Source: OCS155 cluster bacterium AG-333-G23
GTDB lineage: Bacteria; Actinomycetota; Acidimicrobiia; Actinomarinales; Actinomarinaceae
NCBI GenBank assembly: GCA_003282445.1
Contig: QBZE01000005.1
Span: 14,172 to 78,171 of the forward strand
Reading direction: 5' to 3'
DNA length: 64,000 bases
A program made the translations under genes and the position numbers. Under the pieces are notes generated by a model, which was not told the origin of the DNA, did no database searches, and worked only from the letters and a program-made list of their open reading frames with translations. This document shows, one piece after another, positions 37,526 to 54,966 of this stretch; within the stretch, counting starts at the first letter, position 1, and every line of letters begins with the position of its first letter.

Positions 37526-39207
37526 CAGTGCTTGCGACAGCAGGTCATGTAGATCATGGGAAATCCACTTTTGTTAATTTTTTAACAAATCAAGAAACTG
37601 ACAGGTTAGCTGAAGAAAAAAAAAGAGGTTTAACAATAAACCTGGGTTATACGTATTTTAAGGATAAGGATCAAACGTACTCTATTGTTGATGTGCCCGG
37701 TCATAGTGATTTTTTTAAAAATACAGTTTCAGGTTTTTCAAATGCAAATGTAATTTTATTTATTATTGATTCAACTCAAGGTTGGTCTAAACAATCAGAA
37801 GAACACTTCAATACACTAGTTGAATTAGGTAAAGAAAATTTTATATTTGTTTACACAAAAATAGATTTGTTAGAACCATCAGCAACATACGATGCTTTAG
37901 ATAAAAAATCAGATAAGTTAAAAAAGTTAAACTACACAATCCTTGAATTTGATTTAAAAAACTCTAAAAGAGAGAATGTCATAAAAAAAATTGTTGAATT
38001 TATTAATAAATGTGAGTTTAAAAAAAATAATGCTTCTATGTGGGTGGATAGAAGTTTTATTATTGATGGAGTAGGACGAGTAGTTACAGGAACAGCAAAC
38101 TCAAATTTTCAAACTGATGATATATATTTTCCAGCTGAAGGTAATAAATTAGAAATCAAAGAATTACAAAGTTTAAATGAAAAATATAAAGATGGTTTAA
38201 ATTCAAAAAGAGTTGCTATTTCGCTCAAAAAAAATAATAAAATATTTCCAAAAAAAGGAGCTTTGTTAACAAATAATGAAATTGCTTTTACTAATTTATT
38301 ATTTGTAAAATTTAGAAATAAAGTAACCGATAAAAATTTTAACAGAGGTACCAGAAGAATTTTTATCGGAACAACAAGCGTTCTGATAAAAAATATTTGG
38401 AATATAAATTTAAAAACAAATACTTATGGATTAATTGAACTTAATAAAAAAATTCCAATTGTAAATAATGAAAGGTTTGTCATACAAAATATTGAAAATA
38501 ACAAATTTTTTGGAGGTGAATTTCTATTTTTTATAAATAATAAATTTCTAAAAAAGCATATTATTAATCTATCAATAAAGAAAATTAAAATAAATTCTCT
38601 ATTTGATTTATTCACTGTTCTTAAAAAAGGCTTTGTTCAGGACAGTATCAAAACTGTGAACATTGACGACTGGATTATAAAAGAAGATACTTTAAAAAAG
38701 ATTGAAACAGACATAGACCAAAACTACAAGGAAATAAATAAAGTCGGTTTTATTAAATATATGAATAGAGAATATTTTATAGATCAAGAATTTTTAGATA
38801 AAGTTATGAACAATTTTAAGAATATTAATATTTTTGAAGATCAAATAGCGATAAATTTAAACAATGAAGCAGTCGATAATGAAACATTTGAAGATATTAA
38901 AACAAAACTCGGTGAAAAATTAGAGGTTAATAAATTAGAGATAAATCAGTATGACAAAGAATCAATCAAATCATTGTTTTTAAATGAAAAAATTTACAGA
39001 ATATCAAAAAATATTATAATTGCAGATCTGCACCTAAAAATCCTAATTAAACACCTTGAGAAACTGCCTGTCGAATTTAGTGTTTCCGAATTTAAAGATC
39101 AAACTAAATTATCAAGAAAATATGCAATACCTATGCTGGAATTATTAGATAAGAAATTAATTACTTCTAAGATGAACGATTCAGGAGACCGGAAAAAATT
39201 AGTCTGA
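37522..39207 (+). CDS. selB: Selenocysteine-specific translation elongation factor
   Basis: 561 aa with an ATGA overlap with selA. The G-domain has AGHVDHGKST, DVPGH and TKID. The long C-terminal extension is as expected for SECIS-binding winged helices. Confidence 0.85.
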   Translation: MTVLATAGHVDHGKSTFVNFLTNQETDRLAEEKKRGLTINLGYTYFKDKDQTYSIVDVPGHSDFFKNTVSGFSNANVILFIIDSTQGWSKQSEEHFNTLVELGKENFIFVYTKIDLLEPSATYDALDKKSDKLKKLNYTILEFDLKNSKRENVIKKIVEFINKCEFKKNNASMWVDRSFIIDGVGRVVTGTANSNFQTDDIYFPAEGNKLEIKELQSLNEKYKDGLNSKRVAISLKKNNKIFPKKGALLTNNEIAFTNLLFVKFRNKVTDKNFNRGTRRIFIGTTSVLIKNIWNINLKTNTYGLIELNKKIPIVNNERFVIQNIENNKFFGGEFLFFINNKFLKKHIINLSIKKIKINSLFDLFTVLKKGFVQDSIKTVNIDDWIIKEDTLKKIETDIDQNYKEINKVGFIKYMNREYFIDQEFLDKVMNNFKNINIFEDQIAINLNNEAVDNETFEDIKTKLGEKLEVNKLEINQYDKESIKSLFLNEKIYRISKNIIIADLHLKILIKHLEKLPVEFSVSEFKDQTKLSRKYAIPMLELLDKKLITSKMNDSGDRKKLV

Positions 39208-42664: not shown

Positions 42665-42946
42665 TTATTTTTTAGGAATTCTTGCTGCTTTTAAAAGATT
42701 TCCATTTTCATCTATCAATCCGCACCTTTTAGAAAGTAATTTTGGATTAAATGAAAATAAATTTTTTTTCCATGTTGCAATATATCCATAACCACCAACA
42801 GCATCCAACCTTTCTGTTGCTTCATCTAATTCAGCAGTTGAAGGTGCAACAACAATAGGGAGGTCATCTTGATAAAGTGCATCCCAATCTTCTGAGATTG
42901 AGGCCTTCCCTGATTTGAGAAGTATATTAAGAATATCTTCAGTCAT
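42665..42946 (-). CDS. Hypothetical 93-aa protein, last gene of the mtl-ptsH operon
   Basis: It overlaps ptsH by 8 nt. No family was recognised. Confidence 0.45.
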   Translation of the reverse strand: MTEDILNILLKSGKASISEDWDALYQDDLPIVVAPSTAELDEATERLDAVGGYGYIATWKKNLFSFNPKLLSKRCGLIDENGNLLKAARIPKK

Positions 42947-43199
42947 CTTTTGAAATCAATTCTTCAAACTTTAACATATATTCTTCTTCATTTTGTCCAT
43001 TCAAAGTTAAGTCAAATGAAGTATCTTTTTTAATTCCTAGCTTTAATATCCCAATCATGCTTTTGCCATCTACTTCCTGGTCGTTATAAGAAATAATTAC
43101 TTCTCCATCAAACTCTTGAGCTATTTTAACAAACTCAGCTGCAGGTCTTGCATGTAGCCCCACAGAGGATCTAATAGTTAAGTTTTTTGTAACTGACAT
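42939..43199 (-). CDS. ptsH: Phosphocarrier protein HPr
   Basis: 86 aa. It has SVGLHARPA (His15 site) and DGKSMIGIL (Ser46 region). Confidence 0.85.
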   Translation of the reverse strand: MSVTKNLTIRSSVGLHARPAAEFVKIAQEFDGEVIISYNDQEVDGKSMIGILKLGIKKDTSFDLTLNGQNEEEYMLKFEELISKDD

Positions 43200-45112: not shown

Positions 45113-46174
45113 TTAAGCAGTTGGAACGTTGACGTCGATTGTGTCTTCAACTCCAGCATCAGTTTCTGTTATTGGTCTAGCTCTTAAGATGATTGTACCA
45201 ACGACTGCAGCAGCAACTGCTCCAATCAATACACCACCTAGCACAGCAAAGTGTCCACCTCTAGGTGTAACAGCTAAGTATGCAAATATACTTCCTGGTG
45301 AAGGTGTTGCCACCAAACCAGCTCCAGTAATCTGGAACCAGAGGTCAGCAGAAATTCCACCTGCCCACATACTTAGGATCATAATTGGATGTCCTAAAAC
45401 ATATGGGAAGTAAATTTCGTGAATTCCTCCAAAGAAGTGAATGATAATGGAACCTGGAGCAGATTGCTTCCACATTCCAGTACCTGCAAACCAATATGCA
45501 AGCAACAACCCTAGACCTGGTCCAGGATTTGTTTCAAGCAAGAACCAGATGGATTGACCAGTTTCAGCAGCTTCAGCTGCTCCAAGTGGTCCTAATACAC
45601 CGTGGTTGATTGCATTGTTTAAAAATAGTACTTTGGCTACTTCAATAGGAATGTCTGCTAATGGTACTAGACCTGCGTCTACTAATGCACCAGCTGCATT
45701 TCCTAAGAAATCGGTTATTCCTTGCAGAATTGGACCGATAACGTTCTTGCTTACAACTGCAAGAATTGTACCAAGGATACCTAGTGAGAAGTTGTCTACC
45801 AACATCTCAAAGCCTTCAGGAGTTGCAGGTTGCAAAGCTCCGTCTACTTTCTTTTGTACCCATGCTGCCAAAGGACCTATGGCCATAGCTCCTAAGAATT
45901 GAGGAGTAGTTGAACCAACAACAATAGCTGTTGTTACAACTGCACCAATTACACCACCTCTGTGTCCATGAACCATTTTTCCACCTGTATAACCAATAAG
46001 TATTGGTAACATGGTCACGATCATAGGACCAACCATTTCAGATAGGCCTTCGTTAGGTACCCATCCTGTTGGTATAAAGAGAGCTGTAATCAAACCCCAA
46101 GCAATGAAAGCACCGATGTTAGGAATAACCATTCCTGCCATCGCGCCCCCAACGCGTTGTATGGATTCTTTCAT
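45113..46174 (-). CDS. PTS mannitol-specific EIIC
   Basis: 353 aa. VIPNIGAFIAWGLITALFIPTGWVPNE, LFLNNAINHG, ETNPGPG and GGIHEIYFPYVL are near-identical blocks to the E. coli MtlA EIIC domain. Confidence 0.9.
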   Translation of the reverse strand: MKESIQRVGGAMAGMVIPNIGAFIAWGLITALFIPTGWVPNEGLSEMVGPMIVTMLPILIGYTGGKMVHGHRGGVIGAVVTTAIVVGSTTPQFLGAMAIGPLAAWVQKKVDGALQPATPEGFEMLVDNFSLGILGTILAVVSKNVIGPILQGITDFLGNAAGALVDAGLVPLADIPIEVAKVLFLNNAINHGVLGPLGAAEAAETGQSIWFLLETNPGPGLGLLLAYWFAGTGMWKQSAPGSIIIHFFGGIHEIYFPYVLGHPIMILSMWAGGISADLWFQITGAGLVATPSPGSIFAYLAVTPRGGHFAVLGGVLIGAVAAAVVGTIILRARPITETDAGVEDTIDVNVPTA

Positions 46175-46200
46175 TTTTCAATCTCCTTTGATTGATTAAT

Positions 46201-46218
46201 TGTCGTAGTGTTACGACA
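46201..46218 (-). promoter_or_regulatory. Perfect 7-4-7 palindrome upstream of mannitol EIIC (candidate operator or 5'-UTR hairpin)
   Basis: TGTCGTA-GTGT-TACGACA lies 27-44 nt upstream of the EIIC ATG and 6 nt downstream of a minus-strand TATAAT (46230..46225). Confidence 0.3.
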
Positions 46219-46359
46219 CCACCTATTATATGAAAAATCTTTCTAGTTTTCTTCATAATTAATATGAAATTCAATTATTAGATGTAACTAATTTATAAAG
46301 AAAATGGTCCTAAAGACTATTTTTTTAATAAAGAATGGCTGATTAGACTATAAAAATCA

Positions 46360-46755
46360 GTGAATTATTTAAAAAATCTAGTAATAATAGCTTTTCTAAT
46401 TGCTGCTTTAGTAGCTATATCTTTTGGTGCTACGAAATCCTTAGTTATTAATACCTCTAAGCCTCTAACTAATGTTATTTCTGGTTCTTTTAGCATTCCT
46501 CCATCAGAAGTATTATTTAATGACGAAACAGTAACTGTAATTATTGAAAGAAGAAAGAAAGATGAGGCTGAACGAATTGTAAGCGAATGTTTAAATTACC
46601 ACTCGGAAAAATATCGTGAATACAAAAATATATCTTGTAATTTAATCGTTAAAACAAACTTACTAATTGATAATAGTTGTGAATATATAGTCGGAACTTT
46701 AAAAGAGACGGATGGGAAAAATATAATTAATTTAGGTATTAATCCAGATTGTTAA
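46360..46755 (+). CDS. Hypothetical secreted/membrane-anchored Cys-containing protein
   Basis: 131 aa with a GTG start, an N-terminal TM/signal segment and four Cys. No family was recognised. Confidence 0.4.
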   Translation: MNYLKNLVIIAFLIAALVAISFGATKSLVINTSKPLTNVISGSFSIPPSEVLFNDETVTVIIERRKKDEAERIVSECLNYHSEKYREYKNISCNLIVKTNLLIDNSCEYIVGTLKETDGKNIINLGINPDC

Positions 46756-46761
46756 AATCTA

Positions 46762-47040
46762 TTAATCAAAAATAGACCCTAGGAGACTATCTTCTTCTGT
46801 TTCAATTTCAGCTAATACTTCTCCAACATTTATTACTGAACCTTCTTCGACTATTAGCTTAATTACTTTTCCTGTAAATGGAGAGTCAAGATCCATATCT
46901 ACTTTATCAGTAGATATTTCAGCAATTATATCTCCTTTCTTGATTTCTGAACCCTCTGAAATATTCCATTTCAATAACTCTGCTTCAGTCATCTGATCAG
47001 ACATGGCGGGCAATATAATATTTTCTTTACTCATTTTCAA
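46762..47040 (-). CDS. Stand-alone lipoyl-attachment-domain protein (no E2 catalytic domain)
   Basis: 92 aa. LPAMSDQMTEAELLKW...GDIIAEISTDKVDMDL...G is the biotin/lipoyl fold, with the lipoyl lysine in TDKV. It overlaps the E1 beta gene by 14 nt. Confidence 0.75.
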   Translation of the reverse strand: MKMSKENIILPAMSDQMTEAELLKWNISEGSEIKKGDIIAEISTDKVDMDLDSPFTGKVIKLIVEEGSVINVGEVLAEIETEEDSLLGSIFD

Positions 47041-48019
47041 TTACTTTAAGTATTGAATTTATAATATCATCTTTTTGAGGTATGACTTTGTTCTCTAAAT
47101 GTTTAGCTGAAGGCATGGGTGAGTGTAATCCTGATAATAATTTTGGTGGTGTTTTTATTTTTTTAAAAGCCTCTGAGGAGACCACTTCTGTAATAACAGT
47201 GGATCCAACGGAGCTATCACCAGAAGCTTCTTGGCACATTAGAAGTCTTCCTGTCTTTCTTACTGAGCTTATCACTAAATCAATATCTAGCGGAGATAAA
47301 GTCATTAAGTCTATTAATTCAACTGAATATTTTTCTAATTTTTTATCATTAATTGCTTCTTTAGCAGTATTTATCATATTTGAGTAAGAGACAACAGTTA
47401 TGTCTGAGCCTTCAGAGATGATTTTTCCTTTTCCAAGTAGAGATGAGTCTTTCGGAAAATCATTTATCTGTACATCTTCTTTAATTTTATAAATTAACTT
47501 ATGTTCCATAAATATTATTGGATTCCTATCAATAAAAGATGCTAATAATAAATCATAAGCATTCTGTGGCCCCGATGGTGTGACAACTTTTAATCCTGGA
47601 ACATGACAGAACCATGATTCAAGTGATTGGCTATGCTGAGCAGCAGCTCCGGTGCCTCCTCCGCTTGCTCCTCTCACAATTAATGGCACATCTACTGAGC
47701 CTCCATACATGAAATGTAGCTTAGCTGCCTGGTTTACAATTGGATCCATCGCATTAACTATAAAGTCACTAAACTGCATCTCCACAATCGGTCTCATTCC
47801 AGTTATTGCAGCTCCAACTCCAAGCCCAGCTATCACGTCCTCTGAAATGGGTGTATCTTTTATTCTGTTTTCACCGTATTGTTCAAGCAAGCCATCCGTT
47901 ACTCCAAATGCTCCTCCATAAATACCAATATCTTCTCCTGCTAAAAATGCCTCTTCGTAATTATCTAAACATAGAGAAAGGGCTTTCTTGATAGCTTGAC
48001 CGGTTGACATTTCAGGCAT
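47027..48019 (-). CDS. TPP-dependent dehydrogenase E1 component, beta subunit (AcoB/PdhB-like)
   Basis: 330 aa. It has GEDIGIYGGAFGVT, DTPISE and MQFSDF, plus a C-terminal transketolase-C-like domain. Confidence 0.9.
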   Translation of the reverse strand: MPEMSTGQAIKKALSLCLDNYEEAFLAGEDIGIYGGAFGVTDGLLEQYGENRIKDTPISEDVIAGLGVGAAITGMRPIVEMQFSDFIVNAMDPIVNQAAKLHFMYGGSVDVPLIVRGASGGGTGAAAQHSQSLESWFCHVPGLKVVTPSGPQNAYDLLLASFIDRNPIIFMEHKLIYKIKEDVQINDFPKDSSLLGKGKIISEGSDITVVSYSNMINTAKEAINDKKLEKYSVELIDLMTLSPLDIDLVISSVRKTGRLLMCQEASGDSSVGSTVITEVVSSEAFKKIKTPPKLLSGLHSPMPSAKHLENKVIPQKDDIINSILKVIENE

Positions 48020-48971
48020 AAGAGTCCTCTTCTAAATTTGTTTCAGAACTTTCAGGTGATTCTAAGGCTTTTTTTACAGAATTTTTTATTTCTTCTTTTA
48101 CTTCGTTTTCAATATTTTCTAAATCTGCCTTCTTATAACCTTCTTCTAATAATTTTCCACTAAATCTAATAAGTGGATCTTTTTCTTCTTTCCAAAAATT
48201 TATTTCTTCATCAGTTCTATACAAATTTCTATCTGATTTTGAGTGACCTCTGTATCTGTAGGTAAGACATTCAATAAATCTTGGTTTTCCTTTGGACAAG
48301 ATACTTTCTTTATATCCAGCTACAGTTTCATAAACATTCTCAACATCGTTTCCATCAATAGAGATACTTTCAATACCATAAGACTCTGCTCTTTTTATAA
48401 TTGATCCTCCAGCAATAGCATTCTCTGAGGCCATTGACATTCCATATTGATTATTTTCACATAAAAATATAATTGGCAACTCCCATAAAGAAGCTAGATT
48501 TAATGCTTCGTGAAATGATCCTTCATTGACTGCTCCGTCACCAAAAAAACATAATGTAACATTGTCTTTTTTTTGCATTTTTAATGAGTGCCCTGCTCCA
48601 ACTGCGATCGTTAAGCTCCCTGCTACAACACCATTAGCACCCAAGTTTCCGTTAGAAAGATCTGCAATATGCATTGAACCTCCTCTTCCTCTACAGTATC
48701 CATCTTCTCTTCCTAGTAATTCAGCAAACATACGGAAGGTGTCGGCTCCTTTTGCTAAACAGTGTCCATGACCTCTATGTGTTGAAGTAATTAAATCTTC
48801 TTTAGTTAGTGCAAGGCATGCCCCCGCTGCAGTTGCTTCTTGTCCTATTGATAAATGCATTGTTCCATGCAAAATACCTCTTGAAAACATCTCTTCTAGG
48901 GCTTCTTCAAACATTCGAATAAGAAGCATCATTCTAAAAAGTTCTAATTTTTTATTTTTGTCCAAGGTCAT
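48012..48971 (-). CDS. TPP-dependent dehydrogenase E1 component, alpha subunit (AcoA/PdhA-like)
   Basis: 319 aa. It has GTMHLSIGQEA, HRGHGH, GRGGSMH and the TPP motif FFGDGAVNEG...NN. Confidence 0.9.
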   Translation of the reverse strand: MTLDKNKKLELFRMMLLIRMFEEALEEMFSRGILHGTMHLSIGQEATAAGACLALTKEDLITSTHRGHGHCLAKGADTFRMFAELLGREDGYCRGRGGSMHIADLSNGNLGANGVVAGSLTIAVGAGHSLKMQKKDNVTLCFFGDGAVNEGSFHEALNLASLWELPIIFLCENNQYGMSMASENAIAGGSIIKRAESYGIESISIDGNDVENVYETVAGYKESILSKGKPRFIECLTYRYRGHSKSDRNLYRTDEEINFWKEEKDPLIRFSGKLLEEGYKKADLENIENEVKEEIKNSVKKALESPESSETNLEEDSYA

Positions 48972-48974
48972 TTA

Positions 48975-50225
48975 TTAACTCTTTTGTTTTTTACGTAATT
49001 CGTTAATTAAGTTTTCAGGAAGTTCAACACTTTCTAAAGATATAGGGTCTCCAGCTTTAATTAATTTACTAACTGTTCCACCCTCAAGCAACCCAAGGGG
49101 TGCTAACCCTTTTGAATCTGATACTGGGTAGGCTACACCGTAAGAGGAAAACCCTCCTATTCCATCTATAGTCTCGCCAGGTTCTAAATCTTTTTTCGCG
49201 TGGCCTACAACTTCAGATATCCAAGTCTTTGGTTGCAATCCAGGTTCATTATTAATTATTGCCATTCCAACACTCCTTGGTGCTTCAACTGAGGCTAAAT
49301 GATATGGTCTGTAAAGCGTGTAGTATGGCCCTTCTCCCATTGAGAGATACTCCATTTCTTCAATAACGGTTGGACTGTCACTTTTTACAATAGAAAAAAC
49401 TCCTGGTGCGGGACCGAATGCAAAATCAACCCTTCCAGTATCACTAAGTACTCCTCCATCTTTTTCTGGAATTAATGTTTTATGTAAATCTTTTACCTCA
49501 GAAATAGGTCCATTCATGCCTACTTTGTCTAGAGGGATATTAATTCCATTAGATAAAGCTGTCATCTCAATCATTGTTTTACTTCCGTCAACAAAACTTG
49601 CTAACATTTTGGGGTTCATCTTTTTCTTGTTTGCCTCATCCTTCAGTGAGTCAGGTGTAGCTTTTTGATCTAATGGGTTGTTTTTGCCTTTGCCTACGCA
49701 AACAACTTCAAATCCAGTATCTATTGAAAAATCATATAGCTCTTTACAAACTACTGGCTCATCTCCGTTCGCAACACTGTAGACAACATTTTTTTCTTTT
49801 GATAGTTCAGCCAAATATAAACCTATAGTTATATCTGTTTCAACATTAAGCATTAAAACATGTTTTTCAGCTAACAGACAAGAGTAAGCAACCTCTGCAC
49901 CTACCCAGGGAACTCCTGTAGCTTCATAAACTATATCTATTGGAAGCTCAGCAAGTGATTTTACATCTGAAACTACTCCTCCGTTTCCTTTTTCTATTGA
50001 AGAACTAGCATCACTATCGTAACCTATTGAATTTATTCCTGATAAAGTTAAAGCGTTTTCCGCACGATTTTTATCTATATCAGCACAGGCAACTAATTCC
50101 ATCCCTTTTATCTTGCCAATTTGAGCGGCTAAACCAGTACCCATTTGTCCAGCACCTACTAAACCAACTCTTACTGGTCTACCTATATTTTTCTCTCTTT
50201 CAAGTAATGCTTCAGTTAAATTCAT
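48975..50225 (-). CDS. NAD(P)-binding dehydrogenase with a C-terminal SAF domain (COG4091-like, 'predicted homoserine dehydrogenase')
   Basis: 416 aa. The Rossmann motif is VRVGLVGAGQMGTG. The C-terminal GGTVSKLIKAGDPISLESVEL is a SAF-like beta-clip. Confidence 0.65.
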   Translation of the reverse strand: MNLTEALLEREKNIGRPVRVGLVGAGQMGTGLAAQIGKIKGMELVACADIDKNRAENALTLSGINSIGYDSDASSSIEKGNGGVVSDVKSLAELPIDIVYEATGVPWVGAEVAYSCLLAEKHVLMLNVETDITIGLYLAELSKEKNVVYSVANGDEPVVCKELYDFSIDTGFEVVCVGKGKNNPLDQKATPDSLKDEANKKKMNPKMLASFVDGSKTMIEMTALSNGINIPLDKVGMNGPISEVKDLHKTLIPEKDGGVLSDTGRVDFAFGPAPGVFSIVKSDSPTVIEEMEYLSMGEGPYYTLYRPYHLASVEAPRSVGMAIINNEPGLQPKTWISEVVGHAKKDLEPGETIDGIGGFSSYGVAYPVSDSKGLAPLGLLEGGTVSKLIKAGDPISLESVELPENLINELRKKQKS

Positions 50226-50581
50226 TAGTAAATATTTATTGTGTCACCAACAACTATATCGGGAATCTTTGAATATGAGCAACTGACATCTCCGGGTAAA
50301 GCCGCCTCCTGAGCTGAGTCTAGCTTTAATACCAAATGACCTAAATTTTTAAAATTTTCATTAGCAACTTCTCCAATAGATGTTACTTTTAAAATTTCAC
50401 CTGATAGTTCTATAGTTGTACCAACAACAATATCTCCATTAACAGGTTTTAACTCGTGAACTACTGCTACATCTTGAAGCTCTTCAGGAGCATTATCTCC
50501 AAAGAAGACCACTATACCTTCAGCTAAAAAAAGCTCTGATTGTTCCCCTAATTTAACAATATTTGAGGAATATATTGACAT
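50225..50581 (-). CDS. srlB: PTS glucitol/sorbitol-specific EIIA
   Basis: 118 aa. ...NFKNLGHLVLKLDSAQEAALPGDV...VVGDTINI parallels E. coli SrlB (NLRELGHVTLRFDG...FPGTV...). Confidence 0.85.
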   Translation of the reverse strand: MSIYSSNIVKLGEQSELFLAEGIVVFFGDNAPEELQDVAVVHELKPVNGDIVVGTTIELSGEILKVTSIGEVANENFKNLGHLVLKLDSAQEAALPGDVSCSYSKIPDIVVGDTINIY

Positions 50582-50959
50582 TTAAGCTTCAGTTATTTGA
50601 TCCTCAGAAACTCCTGATACAAAATTATCTTCTTTAATAAATTGAGCTAGGGGTCCAGCGGGTGTGGTGTCATGAATATCAACTGTAGGAACACCTTTCA
50701 TTGGATAGACACCTATTCTTGCAGTCCCACCACAGTCAATAACAGCGCAAGCCATTGCCTTAAAACTTCCTTCGGGAGATGATTTAAATCCATCAAATGC
50801 TTCTGCACCCGTCATATCTGCAATTTTTTGCGCTACTGGATGAATTCCTCCACCAGTAATACAAACTATATATTTTTTTTCTGCATTTGGAGATATTTCT
50901 AAAGGACCTCCCCAGCCACTTGGTCCTGCTTCTACTTTTACTTTTTTATAATCTGACAT
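50582..50959 (-). CDS. PTS glucitol-specific EIIB domain (N-terminal half of SrlE) as a separate protein
   Basis: 125 aa. GPSGWGGPLEI, VIDCGGTARIGVYP and GPLAQFIKEDNFVSGV parallel E. coli SrlE residues 1 to about 125. An AAGGAG SD is present. Confidence 0.85.
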   Translation of the reverse strand: MSDYKKVKVEAGPSGWGGPLEISPNAEKKYIVCITGGGIHPVAQKIADMTGAEAFDGFKSSPEGSFKAMACAVIDCGGTARIGVYPMKGVPTVDIHDTTPAGPLAQFIKEDNFVSGVSEDQITEA

Positions 50960-50980
50960 TTTTTCTCCTTAAAAAAATTT

Positions 50981-51010
50981 GTAACGCTCTGATTTTACAC
51001 AGAGCGCTAC
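50981..51010 (-). terminator. A-tract / hairpin / U-tract element between the two SrlE halves
   Basis: On the minus-strand RNA the sequence is GUAGCGCUCUG-UGUAAAAU-CAGAGCGUUAC: 11 bp with one G-U pair, which would be an A-C mismatch on the other strand. AAAAAUU precedes it and AAAUUUUUUU, then AAGGAG, follow. Confidence 0.45.
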
Positions 51011-51035
51011 AATTTTTAAAATTGTTTAACTAAAT

Positions 51036-51560
51036 TTATAAACCTAGTGCAAACAAGTAACCAACAACTACAGATATTGGTCCAGTTATCATTCTACTTG
51101 TGAGAACTGCTGGAACTCCAACCTCTACAGTTTCTGGCTCAGCTTCACCTAAAGCCAAACCAACAGGTACGAAGTCGCAACCAACCTGTGGGTTAATTGC
51201 AAACAATGCAGGTAGGGCCATTGAAACATCTATGTTTCCACGTCCAATTTCTGTTCCAATTAAGACACCAACAATTTGTGCTATTACAGCACCTGGTCCT
51301 AATAAAGGAGACAGAATAGGTATTGCACAAATGACACAAACTATCATAAGTCCACCTAAGCTACTTGCGAATCCTTTTATTCCGTTAGCGATAAGATCGC
51401 CTACACCGGTTTCTAATATCAATCCAATGACAAAAGTTACAAATGCCATAAAAGGAATTATGGTTTTAAGACATAGATCAACAGCATCACGTCCTGCTTG
51501 GAACAATGTTCCAACAACGCCACCTACTGATCTACCAATACGTTCTATTAAAGCTTGCAT
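51036..51560 (-). CDS. PTS glucitol-specific EIIC2 (C-terminal half of SrlE) as a separate protein
   Basis: I set the start at ATG 51560 (MQALIERIG...), overlapping the srlA stop as TAATG. The product is a 174-aa polytopic protein. Confidence 0.75.
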   Translation of the reverse strand: MQALIERIGRSVGGVVGTLFQAGRDAVDLCLKTIIPFMAFVTFVIGLILETGVGDLIANGIKGFASSLGGLMIVCVICAIPILSPLLGPGAVIAQIVGVLIGTEIGRGNIDVSMALPALFAINPQVGCDFVPVGLALGEAEPETVEVGVPAVLTSRMITGPISVVVGYLFALGL

Positions 51561-52105
51561 TATGCTGCACCTCCTTGGCGTGACTTCCACATTATGCTAA
51601 AGATAATATCAGTCACAATACCTCTGATTAAGATCACAACTAATCCAGCAAGAAGGTATCTTACTGCTAATGCTGTAACCATATCCGGTGCAACCATTTC
51701 TACGCCAGCTGCAATTCCAAGCCAAACGAATAACTCCCCACCATTTGCATGTGGGAAAATACCCGTGATTGGATGTACAAAGCTGACAGCCGCATCATAA
51801 AACGCTGGTTTATTTTTTTCTGGTAAGAATGTTCCAAATGTATAGCAAACAGGGTTAGTCAGCATAAATACTGCAACGAAAGCGAGCAAAGTATATCTAA
51901 CTGGAACATACATCCAGCCTTCTTGCGATGCCCATTTCGCAAAATTTTCGACCCTTTCTTCACCTATGAATTTAACAAGAGCATTAACTGCTGTTAAAAA
52001 CACAACTACAATTGGGATAATACCTGTGGTGAACCCTACAAAAACATCTGCAGCGGTTCTAAACACCTGTATAAACGCTTCGGCACCAGCCACTAAAGCA
52101 TCCAT
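51560..52105 (-). CDS. srlA: PTS glucitol-specific EIIC1
   Basis: 181 aa. The GAEAFIQVF...TGIIPIVVVFLTAVNALVKFIG... and FPHANGGELFVWLGIA blocks parallel E. coli SrlA. Confidence 0.85.
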   Translation of the reverse strand: MDALVAGAEAFIQVFRTAADVFVGFTTGIIPIVVVFLTAVNALVKFIGEERVENFAKWASQEGWMYVPVRYTLLAFVAVFMLTNPVCYTFGTFLPEKNKPAFYDAAVSFVHPITGIFPHANGGELFVWLGIAAGVEMVAPDMVTALAVRYLLAGLVVILIRGIVTDIIFSIMWKSRQGGAA

Positions 52106-52108
52106 AGT

Positions 52109-52495
52109 TTATCCTTTCTCTACTGAACTACTCTTTTTTTCATCAACAATTTTATTAATTAATGCATCAACAGCCATTTTGGCTGCATCATAGAGTGGTT
52201 CTTGAATATCTGAATCTCTTATTTCAGATAAAGTTTTTCCGATAAGTGTTGATTCTTTTTTCCCTTTAGCAAATACTGTTGTACCCTCTAAAGTGACTGC
52301 ATCAACAATTATTGAATCTTGATTGGCAGATACTGCTACATAGATTTTTTTTCTGCCCCATTTTGGTTGATTAACACCAATAGATACAGTTAATCCTGGT
52401 CCCTTAAGGTCATTTACAATGTTTAAGAAACTAGTAGCCTGTTCTTTGGCAAGACGCATTTGCAAGACCCACATTAATGCAAGCCCAATAAACAA
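52109..52495 (-). CDS. gutM: GutM-like glucitol operon activator
   Basis: 128 aa with a TTG start. It has an N-terminal TM helix, then ...VAVSANQDSIIVDAVTLEGTTVFAKGK, resembling GutM (...IALDDQQRIVDTLFMKGLTVFARP). Confidence 0.65.
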   Translation of the reverse strand: MFIGLALMWVLQMRLAKEQATSFLNIVNDLKGPGLTVSIGVNQPKWGRKKIYVAVSANQDSIIVDAVTLEGTTVFAKGKKESTLIGKTLSEIRDSDIQEPLYDAAKMAVDALINKIVDEKKSSSVEKG

Positions 52496-52651
52496 TGCAC
52501 CTAAGGCGTATGGTGAACTAAGTATTTTTGTTCTCCCCCCAACAACAAAATGTTATTAATTTAATTCTACAAAATAAGTTTTTCCGATGGAGAGTAGTTG
52601 GTGAAAAATACAATAACAATGTAACGTTTTTTATGTTTTGTAAGTGATAAT

Positions 52652-53338
52652 TTACTCTTCTATAAGCTTTTCTAGCTCAAATATGTCCTCTATATATGTA
52701 ACTTTCATATTTCTAGGATCACCTGGGATAATCATTGCTTCCATTCCTAAGTACTTAGAAACACATTCTGTAGTGTCTACTGCTTGCCAATTATCTAATT
52801 TAGCTAGTTCGTAAGATTCCCATAGTTCTTTTGCTGGAAATACTTGTGGAGTCTGAACTTCGATGATTGTCTCATCTTCTTCGGCTTCATTGCTATTCTC
52901 TTTTTGACTTAAATTTATTGAACTAAAGCCAGGAGCTGATCCACCATACTTAATAGCTACATTTATTAATTCATTTATAAGAGGTTCTGGCAGAAAAGGT
53001 CTTGCACCATCGTGGATCAGGATTAGATCTTTATCTTCAACTTTGTTTGATTCTTTTAAATAATTTAATCCTTCATACTCACTTTCATGTCTCGAGTTAC
53101 CTCCAACTGTTACGCCAATTAATTTTTTTGGATCAACTAATTCAATTACATTATTGGTTTTGTCCCAGTCCTCCTCTCTAATGACAAGGACTATCGAATC
53201 AATAATGCTAGATTTCTCTAAAGTTTCTAATGGCCAACATAGTGCTGGTCTTCTTCCTATTGGAAAGTAAACTTTATTTTCTTCATTAGAGAATCGATTA
53301 CTGGAACCTCCCGCTAGAAGAATTGCGTGTGTCTTCAT
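52652..53338 (-). CDS. ispD: IspD-family cytidylyltransferase (MEP cytidylyltransferase, or an alditol-phosphate cytidylyltransferase)
   Basis: 228 aa. It has ILLAGGSSNRF, LIHDGARPF, QTPQVF and KVTYIEDI. It overlaps ptsI by 4 nt. Confidence 0.7.
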   Translation of the reverse strand: MKTHAILLAGGSSNRFSNEENKVYFPIGRRPALCWPLETLEKSSIIDSIVLVIREEDWDKTNNVIELVDPKKLIGVTVGGNSRHESEYEGLNYLKESNKVEDKDLILIHDGARPFLPEPLINELINVAIKYGGSAPGFSSINLSQKENSNEAEEDETIIEVQTPQVFPAKELWESYELAKLDNWQAVDTTECVSKYLGMEAMIIPGDPRNMKVTYIEDIFELEKLIEE

Positions 53339-54966
53339 AAATTTAATTTTTTTAATTCTTCTCTAACTTCAGTTGAGTTCTCAAGAGCTAATATATTATC
53401 TTTAATTTTGTTTAAATCCATATCTTTTATTTTATTTAGTTGCTGGAATACAAAAGGAGCTGATGAAGGAGACATGCTGAAAACTCTTAGCCCCAAAGCA
53501 TAGAGAGCTGATGCTGATATTGAGTCAGAGGACATCTCGCCACATACAGAAACTTCTACATTGTTCTTGTTAGCTGTTGATATTACATTTTCTAAGGTCC
53601 TTAATACTGCAGGATGAAGGGGGTCTTGATACTTAACAAGATTTGGATTGCCTCTGTCGGCTGCCATAATATATTGCGTTAGATCATTCGTTCCGATGGA
53701 AAAGAAGTCAACATACTTAGAAAATTCTTCAATTAATAATGTTGATGATGGTGTTTCAATCATTATTCCTACTTCTGGTTTATTGATTTTTAATTTATCA
53801 GCTATTGTTTCAACTATCTGATTTGATTCAAGAAAATCTTCAATTGTAGATATCATTGGAAACATTATTTTGACTCTTTCAACATTTTTAGAAATTAATA
53901 TTGATTCAATTTGTGTTTCAAATAATTCTTTTTTTTCTAATGAAAGTCTTATGCCTCTTACACCAAGGAAAGGATTTTCTTCCTGAGGAAGATCTAAATA
54001 ATCAACCTGCTTATCTCCACCAATGTCTAAAGTTCGATATACAATTGTTCCGGAAAATTTTTTTTGTATATTTTCAAGTATCGTTTTTTGCTCTTCTGTT
54101 GTTGGGATGCTTGATCTGTCTAAATATATAAATTCAGATCTAAATAAACCTATAGAATTAAGAAATGGATGGTCAAAAGAGTTTATTTCTTCATTAGAAC
54201 CAACATTTACCCTGAATTCTAGATCTGAAGCTTCATATATATCTTGCGTGAACGCACTAACTATTTCTTCTTGCATTTTTGATCTCTCATTTATCTCTTT
54301 AATAGTTTTGTCATCAGGATTAATATTTATTTCACCGGTTTCACCATCAATTGAAATTGCATCTTTATTTTTTATAATGTTTATTTCTTCTCCAATACCA
54401 ATAATGCATGGAATGCCTAGATTTTTAGCAACTATAACCGCGTGTGACGTAGTTCCTCCTTCTTTAAGAATAATTCCATTTATATAGCTCATATTCATTG
54501 ATGAAGTATCAGCTGGTGTTAAATCAACAGCTACAATTATTGAATTGTTTTCTAGTTCCACTGAAGAAGTAATCCCCTGCATTGTGTTTATCAAATGTTT
54601 TCCAACTGACAATAGGTCTTCTGCTCTTTGACTAAAATATTCATCATCCATTGACTGTAAAATCTCAGCATTTGCTTTAAAAACTTCAAATACATCAGCT
54701 ACAGAAGTGTTGTTATCTTCATTTATTCCATTAATAACTTCAGGGTCTTGCATTATTAAAATATATGCATCTAAAACGTCTGCTTCGTCTTTTCTTTCAT
54801 TTTCCTTAAAATCTTTTATCTGTAAATTAAATTTTTCGGTAAGTGTTTTGACAGCTTCTTCAAAAGTTAATTGAGCTTCAATGTTTAAATCAATTTCATT
54901 TTCATAAATAAAAGCAGCGCCAATAGCTGTCCCGATGGATACACCATTTCCTTTAACAGTTTTCAT
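53335..54966 (-). CDS. ptsI: Phosphoenolpyruvate-protein phosphotransferase (PTS enzyme I)
   Basis: 543 aa. It has GGTTSHAVIVAKNLGIPCIIG (phospho-His), NPFLGVRGIR and FFSIGTNDLTQY. Confidence 0.9.
   Translation of the reverse strand: MKTVKGNGVSIGTAIGAAFIYENEIDLNIEAQLTFEEAVKTLTEKFNLQIKDFKENERKDEADVLDAYILIMQDPEVINGINEDNNTSVADVFEVFKANAEILQSMDDEYFSQRAEDLLSVGKHLINTMQGITSSVELENNSIIVAVDLTPADTSSMNMSYINGIILKEGGTTSHAVIVAKNLGIPCIIGIGEEINIIKNKDAISIDGETGEININPDDKTIKEINERSKMQEEIVSAFTQDIYEASDLEFRVNVGSNEEINSFDHPFLNSIGLFRSEFIYLDRSSIPTTEEQKTILENIQKKFSGTIVYRTLDIGGDKQVDYLDLPQEENPFLGVRGIRLSLEKKELFETQIESILISKNVERVKIMFPMISTIEDFLESNQIVETIADKLKINKPEVGIMIETPSSTLLIEEFSKYVDFFSIGTNDLTQYIMAADRGNPNLVKYQDPLHPAVLRTLENVISTANKNNVEVSVCGEMSSDSISASALYALGLRVFSMSPSSAPFVFQQLNKIKDMDLNKIKDNILALENSTEVREELKKLNL

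What the first reader, a model, noticed from the sequence alone, without database searches (positions are those of the whole stretch)
46762..52495. Glucitol-type PTS operon lacking SrlD, carrying instead a SAF-domain dehydrogenase, a TPP-dependent E1 alpha/beta pair and an orphan lipoyl-domain protein
Seen in sequence: nine co-directional minus-strand genes are packed with overlaps or gaps of 3 nt or less, apart from one 76-nt spacer. In order they are gutM-like, srlA (EIIC1), the EIIC2 half of SrlE, the EIIB half of SrlE, srlB (EIIA), a 416-aa NAD-binding/SAF-domain dehydrogenase, E1 alpha, E1 beta, and a 92-aa lipoyl domain (lysine in STDKVDMD).

Established: canonical gut/srl operons (E. 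coli srlAEBD-gutM-srlR-gutQ) encode an SDR sorbitol-6-P dehydrogenase, and none is present here. AcoAB/PdhAB-type E1 enzymes normally work with a full E2 (lipoyl domain plus acyltransferase core) and an E3, and neither is present here.

Inference: a PTS-delivered hexitol phosphate may be oxidised by the SAF-domain dehydrogenase. The resulting ketose phosphate may then be cleaved by an acetoin-dehydrogenase-like TPP enzyme, with a C2 unit parked on a free lipoyl carrier. I am not aware of a described pathway with this gene combination.
Basis: partly seen in the sequence, partly recalled or inferred. Interest (0 to 1): 0.7.

Follow-up and report, generated by a model that had tools for sequence, protein, structure and literature searches.

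The report
Probable methylerythritol uptake-and-breakdown operon
A marine actinobacterium carries a sugar-alcohol import system fused to a reverse-running isoprenoid enzyme (DXR-II) and an acetoin-dehydrogenase-like cleavage enzyme, a gene set conserved across several phyla that probably breaks down methylerythritol and that I could not find described.

Summary
The "SAF-domain dehydrogenase" is a DXR-II/DRL enzyme: E 8e-93 to Brucella DRL, with substrate-anchoring K191, K193 and T229 kept.

The combination is not chance. In 36 of 41 well-flanked genome loci, DRL sits with a glucitol-type PTS and an E1 alpha/beta pair. These loci span Actinomycetota, Chloroflexota, Spirochaetota and Bacillota. 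On plasmids, DRL-E1ab-E2-E3(-LipA) occurs with ABC+PfkB kinase or MFS+FGGY kinase instead of the PTS.

Relatives carry a full-length E2. The 90-92 aa lipoyl ORF is therefore a lineage-specific truncation in marine Ca. Actinomarinales. It is kept intact under purifying selection (dN/dS 0.10-0.16) and recurs on hundreds of contigs.

Best explanation, inferred and not shown:
- The PTS imports 2-C-methyl-D-erythritol as MEP.
- IspD can route MEP to isoprenoids.
- DRL runs backwards to give DXP.
- The E1 cleaves DXP, a phosphorylated acetoin analogue, into glyceraldehyde-3-P and an acetyl group on the lipoyl carrier.

I found no description of this pathway or gene context in the searchable literature. 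It would explain why DXR-II occurs in bacteria that do not need it for biosynthesis.

The parts
53335..54966 (-). PTS enzyme I (PtsI). It overlaps ispD by 4 nt, so it is probably co-transcribed with it.
   Evidence: PEP-utilisers_N, PEP-utilizers and PEP-utilizers_C domains.
52652..53338 (-). IspD-like MEP cytidylyltransferase, immediately upstream of the PTS genes.
   Evidence: PF01128 at 119 bits; TIGR00453 at 140 bits, below its 181-bit cut-off. An IspD-like gene lies within 10 kb of DRL in 26 of 41 well-flanked loci.
52109..52495 (-). GutM-like operon activator (start probably at about 52459).
   Evidence: PF06923, E 6.6e-15. One search gives the gene call.
51560..52105 (-). PTS EIIC1 (SrlA).
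   Evidence: PF03608 at 222 bits; NF049923 at 203 bits, above its 150-bit cut-off.
51036..51590 (-). PTS EIIC2, the C-terminal half of SrlE, encoded as a separate gene that precedes EIIB.
   Evidence: PF07663 at 153 bits; NF049924 profile positions 157-329.
50979..51012 (-). Conserved 13-bp hairpin with a T-run inside the 76-nt spacer between the EIIC2 and EIIB genes.
   Evidence: The hairpin is conserved in L082, L083 and L085, and L085 carries one compensatory pair. Its function is unknown.
50582..50959 (-). PTS EIIB, the N-terminal half of SrlE.
   Evidence: PF03612 at 177 bits.
50225..50581 (-). PTS EIIA (SrlB).
   Evidence: PF03829 at 107 bits.
48975..50225 (-). DXR-II/DRL-family NAD(P) oxidoreductase (DXP reductoisomerase-like), proposed here to convert MEP to DXP.
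   Evidence: PF21135 at 203 bits; 315 bits, E 8e-93, to Brucella DRL (3UPL/3UPY) over residues 12-414. G121, E174, F178, K191, K193, T229, R320 and Y322 are kept; H250 is Asn.
48012..48971 (-). TPP-dependent E1 alpha subunit (PDH/acetoin-dehydrogenase type).
   Evidence: PF00676 at 263 bits; GDG...NN TPP motif and the catalytic His in YRGHS are present; TIGR03182 at 350 bits, below its 394-bit cut-off.
47027..48019 (-). E1 beta subunit.
   Evidence: Transket_pyr and Transketolase_C domains; the TPISE Glu and the AAQHSQ His are conserved.
46762..47040 (-). Stand-alone lipoyl-domain protein (90-92 aa), a truncated E2.
   Evidence: PF00364, E 1.6e-18; it aligns to the N-terminus of full-length E2 proteins in relatives; dN/dS 0.10-0.16; all 15 listed members of an 80-member cluster are 90 aa.
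42939..43199 (-). HPr, the general PTS phosphocarrier, at the end of the adjacent mannitol PTS operon. It completes the phosphorelay.
   Evidence: PF00381.

Best explanation
The locus is an uptake-plus-breakdown (and salvage) module for a branched C5 polyol, most likely 2-C-methyl-D-erythritol (ME).

Proposed steps:
1. EI, HPr and the Gut-type EIIA/B/C import ME and phosphorylate it to MEP.
2. IspD can send MEP straight into isoprenoid synthesis as CDP-ME.
3. [quoted passage not shown]
4. DXP is a methyl-ketone acyloin, in effect a phosphorylated acetoin. The acetoin-dehydrogenase-like E1 alpha/beta cleaves it with TPP into glyceraldehyde 3-phosphate and hydroxyethyl-TPP. The hydroxyethyl group is passed oxidatively to the lipoyl-lysine of the small carrier as an acetyl group.
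5. In most lineages a cis-encoded E2 core, and sometimes an E3, finish the job to give acetyl-CoA and NADH. In the marine Actinomarinales clade the E2 has been cut down to its lipoyl domain. Acetyl transfer and re-oxidation must then be done in trans, presumably by the E2 and E3 of another 2-oxoacid dehydrogenase complex.

Shown: gene identities, conservation of the module, the truncation and its selection.
Inferred: the substrate, the direction of DRL, DXP cleavage by E1, and the trans-acting E2/E3.
For: 1. The 416-aa protein is a DXR-II-clade member. It scores E 8e-93 against Brucella DRL, keeps the K191/K193/T229 substrate anchors, and groups in an NJ tree with Brucella, NGR234 and Listeria DXR-II, apart from DLO-like homologues.
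2. Members of this family complement dxr-deficient E. coli. Yet they occur in bacteria that also have DXR-I, use only mevalonate, or have no isoprenoid pathway. The family's own analysts could not explain this (PMC3847144; 2026 review).
3. A Gut-type PTS is documented to import ME into Salmonella (Testa et al. 2004, title cited).
4. DRL is immediately preceded by srlB in 59 of 80 loci. In 36 of 41 well-flanked loci it is accompanied by both PTS and E1ab.
5. DRL-E1a-E1b-E2-LpdA(-LipA) operons under SorC-type regulators occur on rhizobial plasmids with ABC+PfkB kinase, and on a Priestia plasmid with MFS+FGGY kinase. The pattern is always uptake, phosphorylation, DRL, then an oxidative TPP/lipoyl complex.
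6. DLO-like homologues at 31-34% identity lack these neighbours.
7. In Terrarubrum the module's E2 is a bona fide AcoC-type acetoin-dehydrogenase E2 (NF011457, 377 bits against a 307-bit cut-off). The window's lipoyl domain also hits AcoC best.
8. E1 keeps its TPP motif and the histidines needed for lipoyl reduction.
9. IspD is linked in 26 of 41 loci. In an acI genome the module sits inside carD-ispD...ispF-cysS.
10. PDH-type E1 active sites can handle DXP chemistry: aceE mutants make DXP (PMC3424233).
11. ME and exported MEcDP are real environmental metabolites (PMC11192765).
Against: - No enzyme of this module has been assayed. The substrate is deduced from family membership and chemistry only.
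[quoted passage not shown] It is variable in actinobacterial module DRLs.
- In Listeria, Enterococcus raffinosus and Ligilactobacillus salivarius, DRL and the PTS occur without E1/E2. In the latter two they lie next to phosphoketolase or fsa+tkt. That would suit a xylulose-5-P-type product rather than DXP.
- The DXR equilibrium favours MEP, so the reverse flux needs pulling.
- In sister Actinomarina genomes, ispD-DRL stand alone. There DRL may simply be the housekeeping DXR, and the same could hold here.
- The role of a cis-encoded IspD in a catabolic operon is not obvious.
- How the acetyl group leaves a free lipoyl domain without an E2 core is unknown. I could not check whether the genome has another E2, an E3 or a lipoate ligase.
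Confidence: 0.5

Rival explanations
1. Same architecture, different substrate. The PTS imports another polyol, for example apiitol, a pentitol or a deoxy-hexitol. The DRL-family enzyme converts its phosphate to a ketose phosphate, and the TPP enzyme cleaves that.
For: DRL substrate range is untested outside DXP/MEP, and complementation assays can report promiscuous activity. Phosphoketolase, or fsa+tkt, lie next to DRL-PTS in two Lactobacillales. This hints at a xylulose-5-P-like product there. His250 is not conserved.
Against: A hydroxymethyl-ketose phosphate such as Xu5P or F6P enters central metabolism directly, so it needs no lipoyl-dependent oxidative complex. Only a methyl-ketone acyloin fits an acetoin-type E1/E2 (AcoC-type E2). 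The DXR-II substrate anchors K191, K193 and T229 are kept. Apart from hexitols, the one other substrate I am aware of for the Gut PTS family is ME.
Confidence: 0.17
2. Mainly anabolic. DRL is this organism's housekeeping DXP reductoisomerase and works with IspD. The PTS only salvages external ME. E1ab plus the lipoyl protein is a pyruvate or acetoin dehydrogenase, or even a DXP-forming enzyme, unrelated to polyol breakdown.
For: Sister Ca. Actinomarina genomes have ptsI-ispD-DRL at the same locus without PTS-Gut or E1. IspD is tightly linked. Mutant PDH E1 can make DXP. E1a scores close to the PDH E1-alpha equivalog cut-off.
Against: DRL-E1ab-E2-E3 operons sit on accessory plasmids. They are under sugar-type SorC regulators and accompanied by transporters and sugar kinases, which is a catabolic signature. 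A DXP synthase needs neither lipoyl carrier, E2, E3 nor LipA. The linkage holds in genera which, from general knowledge, have DXR-I and DXS (Streptomyces, Nocardia, Mycolicibacterium). The E1 genes are absent from the version-A sister genomes, so they are accessory rather than the cell's PDH.
Confidence: 0.15
3. Ordinary sorbitol/hexitol operon. DRL is a non-orthologous replacement for sorbitol-6-phosphate dehydrogenase, and E1ab/lipoyl is an unrelated neighbour.
For: The PTS proteins pass or approach the NCBIfam glucitol/sorbitol models. The published Actinomarinales genome analysis lists sorbitol uptake (PMC7771536). Listeria and Enterococcus operons have DRL as their only dehydrogenase.
Against: This does not explain the cross-phylum linkage of DRL to E1ab/E2/E3, including loci with no PTS at all. 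Fructose-6-P needs no further dedicated enzyme. DRL keeps DXR-II-specific residues that DLO-like relatives lack.
Confidence: 0.1
4. Degenerating operon. After loss of the E2 core, the E1ab and lipoyl genes of the marine clade are non-functional leftovers.
For: E2 is progressively reduced in streamlined planktonic Actinobacteria. acI genomes have E2 proteins of 340-361 aa, and one has lost the catalytic His. No E2 core or E3 is present in the window.
Against: All three genes are intact in three lineages whose synonymous sites are saturated (dS above 1.4). Their dN/dS values are 0.05-0.16, like DRL and IspD. The 90-aa form recurs unchanged in length on hundreds of contigs. The E1 catalytic residues are retained.
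Confidence: 0.05

Closest known systems
Enterobacterial glucitol operon srlAEBD-gutM-srlR-gutQ (PTS Gut family)
   Same: It has EIIC1, EIIBC and EIIA components and GutM. The Salmonella system is reported to import methylerythritol (Testa et al. 2004, cited).
   Different: The window has no SrlD, SrlR or GutQ. SrlE is split into two genes in permuted order (EIIC2 before EIIB) with a hairpin-bearing spacer. DRL, E1ab and a lipoyl protein follow in the same operon.
DXR-II / DRL of Brucella abortus (PDB 3UPL, 3UPY) and the DXR-II family of Carretero-Paulet et al. 2013
   Same: Full-length homology (E 8e-93), the PF21135 catalytic domain plus SAF, and conserved K191/K193/T229 and dimer-interface residues.
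   Different: In Brucella the enzyme is the biosynthetic DXR. Here it is embedded in a transporter and cleavage operon and is proposed to run in reverse. His250 is replaced by Asn. Actinobacterial members of this clade were not in the 2013 survey's DXR-II list.
Acetoin dehydrogenase enzyme system AcoABCL (TPP E1 alpha/beta, lipoyl E2, E3)
   Same: A heterotetramer-type E1 with a lipoyl acceptor. The proposed chemistry is the same cleavage of a CH3-CO-CHOH-R acyloin. One module (Terrarubrum) uses a true AcoC-type E2. The window's lipoyl domain is most similar to that of AcoC.
   Different: The predicted substrate, DXP, is phosphorylated. In the window the E2 core, E3-binding domain and E3 are missing and only a free lipoyl domain remains. 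E1a and E1b fall just below the PDH equivalog cut-offs, and there is no Aco-specific model to test against.
DXP synthase (DXS) and DXP-forming aceE mutants
   Same: TPP chemistry linking a C2 hydroxyethyl unit and glyceraldehyde-3-P to or from DXP. A PDH E1 can be mutated to make DXP (PMC3424233).
   Different: DXS is a single-chain enzyme that works decarboxylatively and irreversibly towards DXP. Here the reaction proposed is the oxidative reverse cleavage, with lipoate as acceptor.
Free or shared lipoyl carriers: GcvH, and the corynebacterial PDH/ODH supercomplex in which OdhA uses the lipoyl domains of E2p (from general knowledge)
   Same: They are precedents for a lipoyl domain serving enzymes encoded elsewhere.
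   Different: GcvH belongs to a different family. Here the carrier is an E2p-type lipoyl domain released from its own E2 core.

Membership tests
PTS Gut (glucitol) family | EIIC1 (SrlA, PF03608), EIIB and EIIC2 (SrlE, PF03612 and PF07663), and EIIA (SrlB, PF03829). | tested here: met
   All four domains are present. SrlA passes the NF049923 cut-off. SrlE is split and permuted.
Canonical sorbitol catabolic operon | An SDR sorbitol-6-phosphate dehydrogenase (SrlD) encoded in the operon. | tested here: not met
   No SDR is present in the operon or within 10 kb on either side. The only dehydrogenase is the DRL-family protein.
DXR-II / DRL | PF21135 catalytic domain and full-length similarity to the solved Brucella enzyme. 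| tested here: met
   203 bits against a 27-bit cut-off. E 8e-93 over residues 12-414.
DXR-II / DRL | Substrate/fosmidomycin anchors Lys191, Lys193 and Thr229; Gly121; dimer residues Glu174, Phe178, Arg320 and Tyr322. | tested here: met
   All are conserved. Three DLO-like outgroups have K-M-A, K-L-I or K-T-S at positions 191/193/229.
DXR-II / DRL | His250, present in all but four of 53 DXR-II proteins. | tested here: not met
   It is Asn in the window clade; Tyr, Thr or Ile in other module-linked actinobacterial and Thermovorax DRLs; and His in alphaproteobacterial, Listeria and version-A Actinomarina DRLs.
DXR-II / DRL | Catalyses DXP to MEP or the reverse (in vitro, or by complementation of a dxr mutant). 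| not testable with these tools
   This needs an enzyme assay or a complementation experiment.
PDH/acetoin-type E1 alpha/beta | TPP-binding GDG...NN motif, the alpha-subunit catalytic His (GHS), and the beta-subunit Glu (TPISE) and His (AQHSQ). | tested here: met
Pyruvate dehydrogenase E1 (NCBIfam equivalogs) | Score above the curated cut-off of TIGR03182 (alpha) or NF006667 (beta). | tested here: not met
   Alpha scores 349.9 against a cut-off of 393.85. Beta scores 319.2 against 321.
2-oxoacid/acetoin dehydrogenase complex | An E2 with lipoyl domain, E3-binding domain and acyltransferase core, plus an E3. | tested here: not met
   Only the lipoyl domain is present in the window. The feature is met in syntenic relatives.
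Lipoyl domain (PF00364) | Barrel-sandwich domain with the lipoyl-lysine in a DK(A/V) turn. | tested here: met
   E 1.6e-18 over profile positions 2-73 of 73, with the TDKV motif. The single-sequence structure model was too poor to use.
IspD (MEP cytidylyltransferase) | PF01128 domain; score above the TIGR00453 equivalog cut-off. | tested here: inconclusive
   PF01128 scores 119 bits and is met. TIGR00453 scores 140 bits, below its 181-bit cut-off. The ribitol-5-P cytidylyltransferase model scores lower, at 95 bits.

The most novel reading that the evidence does not exclude
Bacteria in several phyla possess an undescribed catabolic route for methylerythritol. Sources could include plants, stressed MEP-pathway microbes that export MEcDP, or isoprene oxidation products.

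In this route DXR-II is primarily a catabolic enzyme running from MEP to DXP, and an acetoin-dehydrogenase-like complex splits DXP into glyceraldehyde-3-P and acetyl-CoA. This would explain the patchy distribution of DXR-II.

Two of the most abundant planktonic actinobacterial groups, marine Actinomarinales and freshwater acI, carry the module. Actinomarinales have reduced its E2 to a free lipoyl carrier protein that must be serviced by another complex.
Probability: 0.4. Interest if true: 0.85.

Novelty: new variant of a known kind. Interest (0 to 1): 0.72.

Why it matters
- **A new carbon route.** If correct, this adds a catabolic pathway for a C5 branched polyol. It connects the MEP pathway backwards to central metabolism.
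- **An explanation for DXR-II.** The family's distribution is still described as unexplained in a 2026 review. It occurs in bacteria that already have DXR-I, use only mevalonate, or make no isoprenoids by either route. A catabolic role would account for this.
- **Ecology.** The module is in abundant streamlined plankton (Ca. Actinomarinales, acI/Nanopelagicales) and on rhizobial accessory plasmids. This points to methylerythritol or a close relative as an exchanged metabolite in surface waters and the rhizosphere.
- **Enzyme evolution.** The stepwise shrinkage of E2 is a natural experiment on how much of a 2-oxoacid dehydrogenase complex can be outsourced. The series runs from a full core, to a core without the catalytic His, to a lipoyl domain only.
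- **Annotation.** These genes are currently named sorbitol PTS, homoserine dehydrogenase-like and pyruvate dehydrogenase. That misleads metabolic reconstructions.

Tried and rejected
- **Homoserine dehydrogenase reading:** rejected. No homoserine dehydrogenase model scores in Pfam or NCBIfam, and the best match is the DRL catalytic domain and the Brucella DRL structure.
- **Assembly artefact or pseudogene for the short lipoyl ORF:** rejected. No remnant of the E2 core lies downstream, the ORF is 90 aa in many independent assemblies, and it is under purifying selection.
- **Coincidental adjacency:** rejected by synteny across phyla and across transporter types.
- **AlphaFold2 on the lipoyl protein without an alignment:** mean pLDDT was 48.8, which is unusable. 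I made no fold search.
- **Greedy ORF calling and clustering on high-GC loci:** it produced shadow ORFs. I used it only to pick candidates, which I then checked with Pfam.
- **Module-specific E1 residues:** several residues are invariant in the module but differ from human PDH E1 (alpha H35, T37, H154, W260; beta Q82, S84, E134). With only one non-module bacterial E1 for comparison, this says nothing firm about a phosphate-binding pocket.
- **Rfam scan:** only four tRNAs, all elsewhere in the window.
- **Promoter scan:** no more hits than in shuffled sequence.
- **Testa et al. 2004:** the paper is not held in the library, so only its title is cited.
- **Rest of the genome:** I could not examine it for dxs, dxr, ispE-H, E2, E3 or lplA/lipB.
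- **Extra rhizobial neighbours:** Pfam on the GlpD-like, ADH and two hypothetical proteins gave no further clue to the substrate.

Full report
**1. Observation**

The nine minus-strand ORFs at 46762-52495 exist as described.
- They are joined by overlaps or gaps of at most 3 nt, apart from the 76-nt spacer at 50960-51035.
- Pfam and NCBIfam confirm each identity: GutM, EIIC1 (SrlA), EIIC2, EIIB, EIIA (SrlB), a 416-aa protein, E1 alpha, E1 beta, and a lipoyl domain with its lysine in TDKV.
- SrlE is split into two genes in permuted order.
- tblastn finds no E2 catalytic domain and no E3 anywhere in the window. No SDR-type SrlD is called near the operon.
- Two upstream genes belong to the same picture. 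An IspD-like cytidylyltransferase (52652-53338) overlaps PTS enzyme I (53335-54966) by 4 nt.
- A mannitol PTS operon ending in HPr lies downstream.
- WhiB, about 30% G+C and 95-96% identity of flanking genes to Ca. Actinomarina single-cell genomes place the window in the marine Ca. Actinomarinales.

**2. The 416-aa protein is DXR-II**

- Its main Pfam hit is PF21135, the DRL catalytic domain, at 203 bits.
- It aligns over residues 12-414 to the Brucella abortus DXR-like enzyme (PDB 3UPL/3UPY) at E 8e-93.
- Using the residue roles given in PMC3847144, it keeps the anchors Lys191, Lys193 and Thr229, plus Gly121 and the dimer residues Glu174, Phe178, Arg320 and Tyr322. His250 is Asn.
- Three more distant homologues (31-34% identity, "DLO-like") lack the K-K-T triad and sit in unrelated neighbourhoods: TRAP transporters or sugar-nucleotide genes.
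- In a rough NJ tree the window protein falls inside the clade bounded by Brucella, S. fredii NGR234 and Listeria DXR-II.

**3. The gene combination is a conserved module**

- A genome-collection scan with a DRL alignment returned 80 loci, which I probed with the window's proteins.
- srlB directly precedes DRL in 59 of 80 loci.
- Of 41 loci with at least 6 kb on both sides, 36 have both a Gut-type PTS and E1 alpha/beta. Of those, 26 also have an IspD-like gene.
- Hosts include Streptomyces, Nocardia, Mycolicibacterium, Amycolatopsis, Kocuria, Cryobacterium, Nocardioides, Rubrobacter, acI/Nanopelagicales, Ktedonobacterales, Caldilineaceae, Alkalispirochaeta and Thermovorax.

Annotated plasmids show the same core with other front ends:

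| Host | Arrangement |
|---|---|
| Shinella | SorC regulator, DRL-E1a-E1b-E2-LpdA |
| Agrobacterium, S. meliloti | ABC transporter, PfkB kinase, DRL-E1a-E1b-E2-LpdA-LipA |
| Priestia | E1a-E1b-E2-LpdA, SorC, MFS, SorC, DRL, FGGY kinase |
| Terrarubrum | Gut PTS, DRL-E1a-E1b, AcoC-type E2 (NF011457, 377 bits vs 307 cut-off) |

So the invariant logic is uptake, phosphorylation, DRL, then a TPP/lipoyl oxidative complex. Listeria, Enterococcus raffinosus and Ligilactobacillus salivarius have only DRL plus the PTS.

**4. The lipoyl ORF is a truncated E2 that has been kept**

- In relatives, the gene after E1 beta is a full E2 of about 390-460 aa. It has lipoyl, E3-binding and acyltransferase domains and a DHRxxDG motif. 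Thermovorax, two actinobacterial loci and the plasmids also carry an adjacent E3.
- acI genomes have shortened E2 proteins of 340-361 aa. One keeps DHR and one has lost the His.
- In the marine clade (the window plus three other lineages sampled from Tara and other metagenomes) only a 90-92 aa lipoyl protein remains. It ends exactly at the conserved LLGxxFD that follows the domain.
- The truncated form is not decaying. Synonymous sites between lineages are saturated (dS above 1.4), yet dN/dS is 0.10-0.16. That is comparable to E1 beta (0.10-0.13) and somewhat higher than DRL (0.07-0.09).
- An 80-member 90%-identity cluster shows 90 aa in all 15 listed members. Single sequences are seen on up to 152 contigs.
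- The E1 keeps its TPP motif, the alpha His next to Ser (YRGHS), and the beta Glu and His.

**5. Local history**

- Ca. Actinomarina single-cell genomes share DnaB, MtlC and CNNM at 95-96% identity with the window. At the same locus they carry only ptsI-ispD-DRL followed by two unrelated genes.
- Their PtsI, IspD and DRL are only 48%, 37% and 46% identical to the window's.
- The region is therefore a replacement-type variable segment with a short and a long version.
- In an acI chromosome, the module sits between carD-ispD and ispF-cysS.

**6. Mechanism proposed**

Shown: the identities, linkage, truncation and selection above.

Established by others:
- DXR-II enzymes interconvert DXP and MEP and complement dxr mutants (PMC3847144).
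- The Salmonella sorbitol PTS imports methylerythritol (Testa et al. 2004; title only).
- Mutant PDH E1 can form DXP (PMC3424233).
- MEcDP is exported by microbes and plants, and free methylerythritol accumulates in plants (PMC11192765).

Inferred:
- The PTS delivers MEP.
- IspD can use MEP directly.
- DRL oxidises and rearranges MEP to DXP.
- The E1 cleaves DXP, which is CH3-CO-CHOH-R like acetoin, into glyceraldehyde-3-P and an acetyl group on the lipoyl carrier.
- E2 and E3 functions are supplied in cis in most lineages and in trans in Actinomarinales.

I put this at about 0.5. The broader statement, a polyol phosphate processed by DRL and then cleaved by the E1/lipoyl system, I put at about 0.75.

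**7. Rivals**

- **Another polyol (0.17).** This is kept alive by the phosphoketolase or fsa/tkt neighbours in two Lactobacillales and by the His250 change.
- **Mainly anabolic (0.15).** The ispD-DRL pair in sister genomes supports this reading: housekeeping DXR-II plus salvage, with E1 unrelated or DXP-forming. The plasmid-borne, SorC-regulated, E2/E3/LipA-containing operons argue against it.
- **Plain sorbitol operon (0.10).** It does not explain the E1/E2 linkage.
- **Decay (0.05).** It is contradicted by selection and abundance.

**8. Novelty**

- Full-text searches found no paper on methylerythritol catabolism or on the gene context of DXR-II.
- The family's main evolutionary study never mentions context, PTS or catabolism. 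It leaves the distribution unexplained.
- A 2026 review repeats that no pattern has emerged.
- The Actinomarinales genome paper lists the transporter simply as sorbitol uptake.
- Subscription-only literature could not be searched, so prior description cannot be fully excluded.

**9. Limits**

- No biochemical data exist for any module member.
- The rest of the genome could not be inspected for dxs, dxr, ispE-H, E2, E3 or lipoate ligase.
- The tree is a simple NJ tree.
- The residue-level comparison of E1 was inconclusive.

Noticed in passing
window 50960-51035 (hairpin 50979-51012, minus strand): The 76-nt spacer between the EIIC2 and EIIB genes holds a 13-bp GC-rich hairpin followed by a T-run, just before the EIIB ribosome-binding site. 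The stem sequence (GTAACGCTCTG...CAGAGCGTTAC) is conserved in three diverged lineages, and L085 has one compensatory A-U to G-C change. It could be an internal attenuator, an mRNA processing or stability element, or a palindromic operator.
   Followed up: partly
window 46360-46755 (+): A 131-aa ORF lies convergent to the operon's end. It has an N-terminal hydrophobic helix and no Pfam match. It keeps its position in L082 and L085 but evolves fast: 30-38% identity, dN/dS 0.3-0.67.
   Followed up: partly
window 51036-51590 and 50582-50959; loci: SrlE is split into separate EIIC2 and EIIB genes in reversed order. Both the permuted order and the canonical B-then-C order occur among module-carrying relatives. 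The permuted order appears in acI, Nocardioides and Nitriliruptorales. The canonical order appears in Streptomyces, Pseudonocardiales and Microbacteriaceae.
   Followed up: no
L081 2636-7350 (Ca. Actinomarina AG-313-C18), syntenic to window 46174-54966: A near-identical genomic backbone carries a short version of the locus. It reads ptsI-ispD-DRL (with His250 kept), then a UPF0047/YjbQ-family gene and a thioredoxin-like gene. PtsI, IspD and DRL are only 37-48% identical to the window's. This looks like a replacement-type variable island.
   Followed up: partly
L057 11401-13207 and L078 11245-12898 (acI/Nanopelagicales): There are two IspD-like genes back to back. The one next to the module scores 149-153 bits on TIGR00453. 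The one following carD scores only 49-67 bits and looks degenerate. A conserved 105-aa ORF of unknown function lies between them.
   Followed up: partly
L096 5100-7481 (Enterococcus raffinosus) and L092 13913-16575 (Ligilactobacillus salivarius): In these Lactobacillales, DRL-PTS operons lack E1/E2. They lie next to other TPP or aldol-cleaving enzymes instead: phosphoketolase in one, fsa plus tkt in the other. From general knowledge, Lactobacillales make isoprenoids by the mevalonate route. The neighbours may be coincidence or an alternative downstream route.
   Followed up: partly
L094 15300-16274 and L095 15220-16188 (rhizobial plasmids): A second lipoyl synthase gene (lipA) closes the DRL-E1ab-E2-LpdA operon. 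A GlpD/EryB-like FAD dehydrogenase and two conserved hypothetical proteins lie alongside.
   Followed up: partly
window 36230-39207: SelA and SelB (selenocysteine incorporation) genes are present in this very small, low-GC genome.
   Followed up: no
window about 4000-29100: A large cell-envelope polysaccharide cluster holds glycosyltransferases, sugar-nucleotide enzymes and four tRNA genes at 22.4-29.1 kb. It matches the tRNA-bounded flexible island described for Ca. Actinomarinales (PMC7771536).
   Followed up: no
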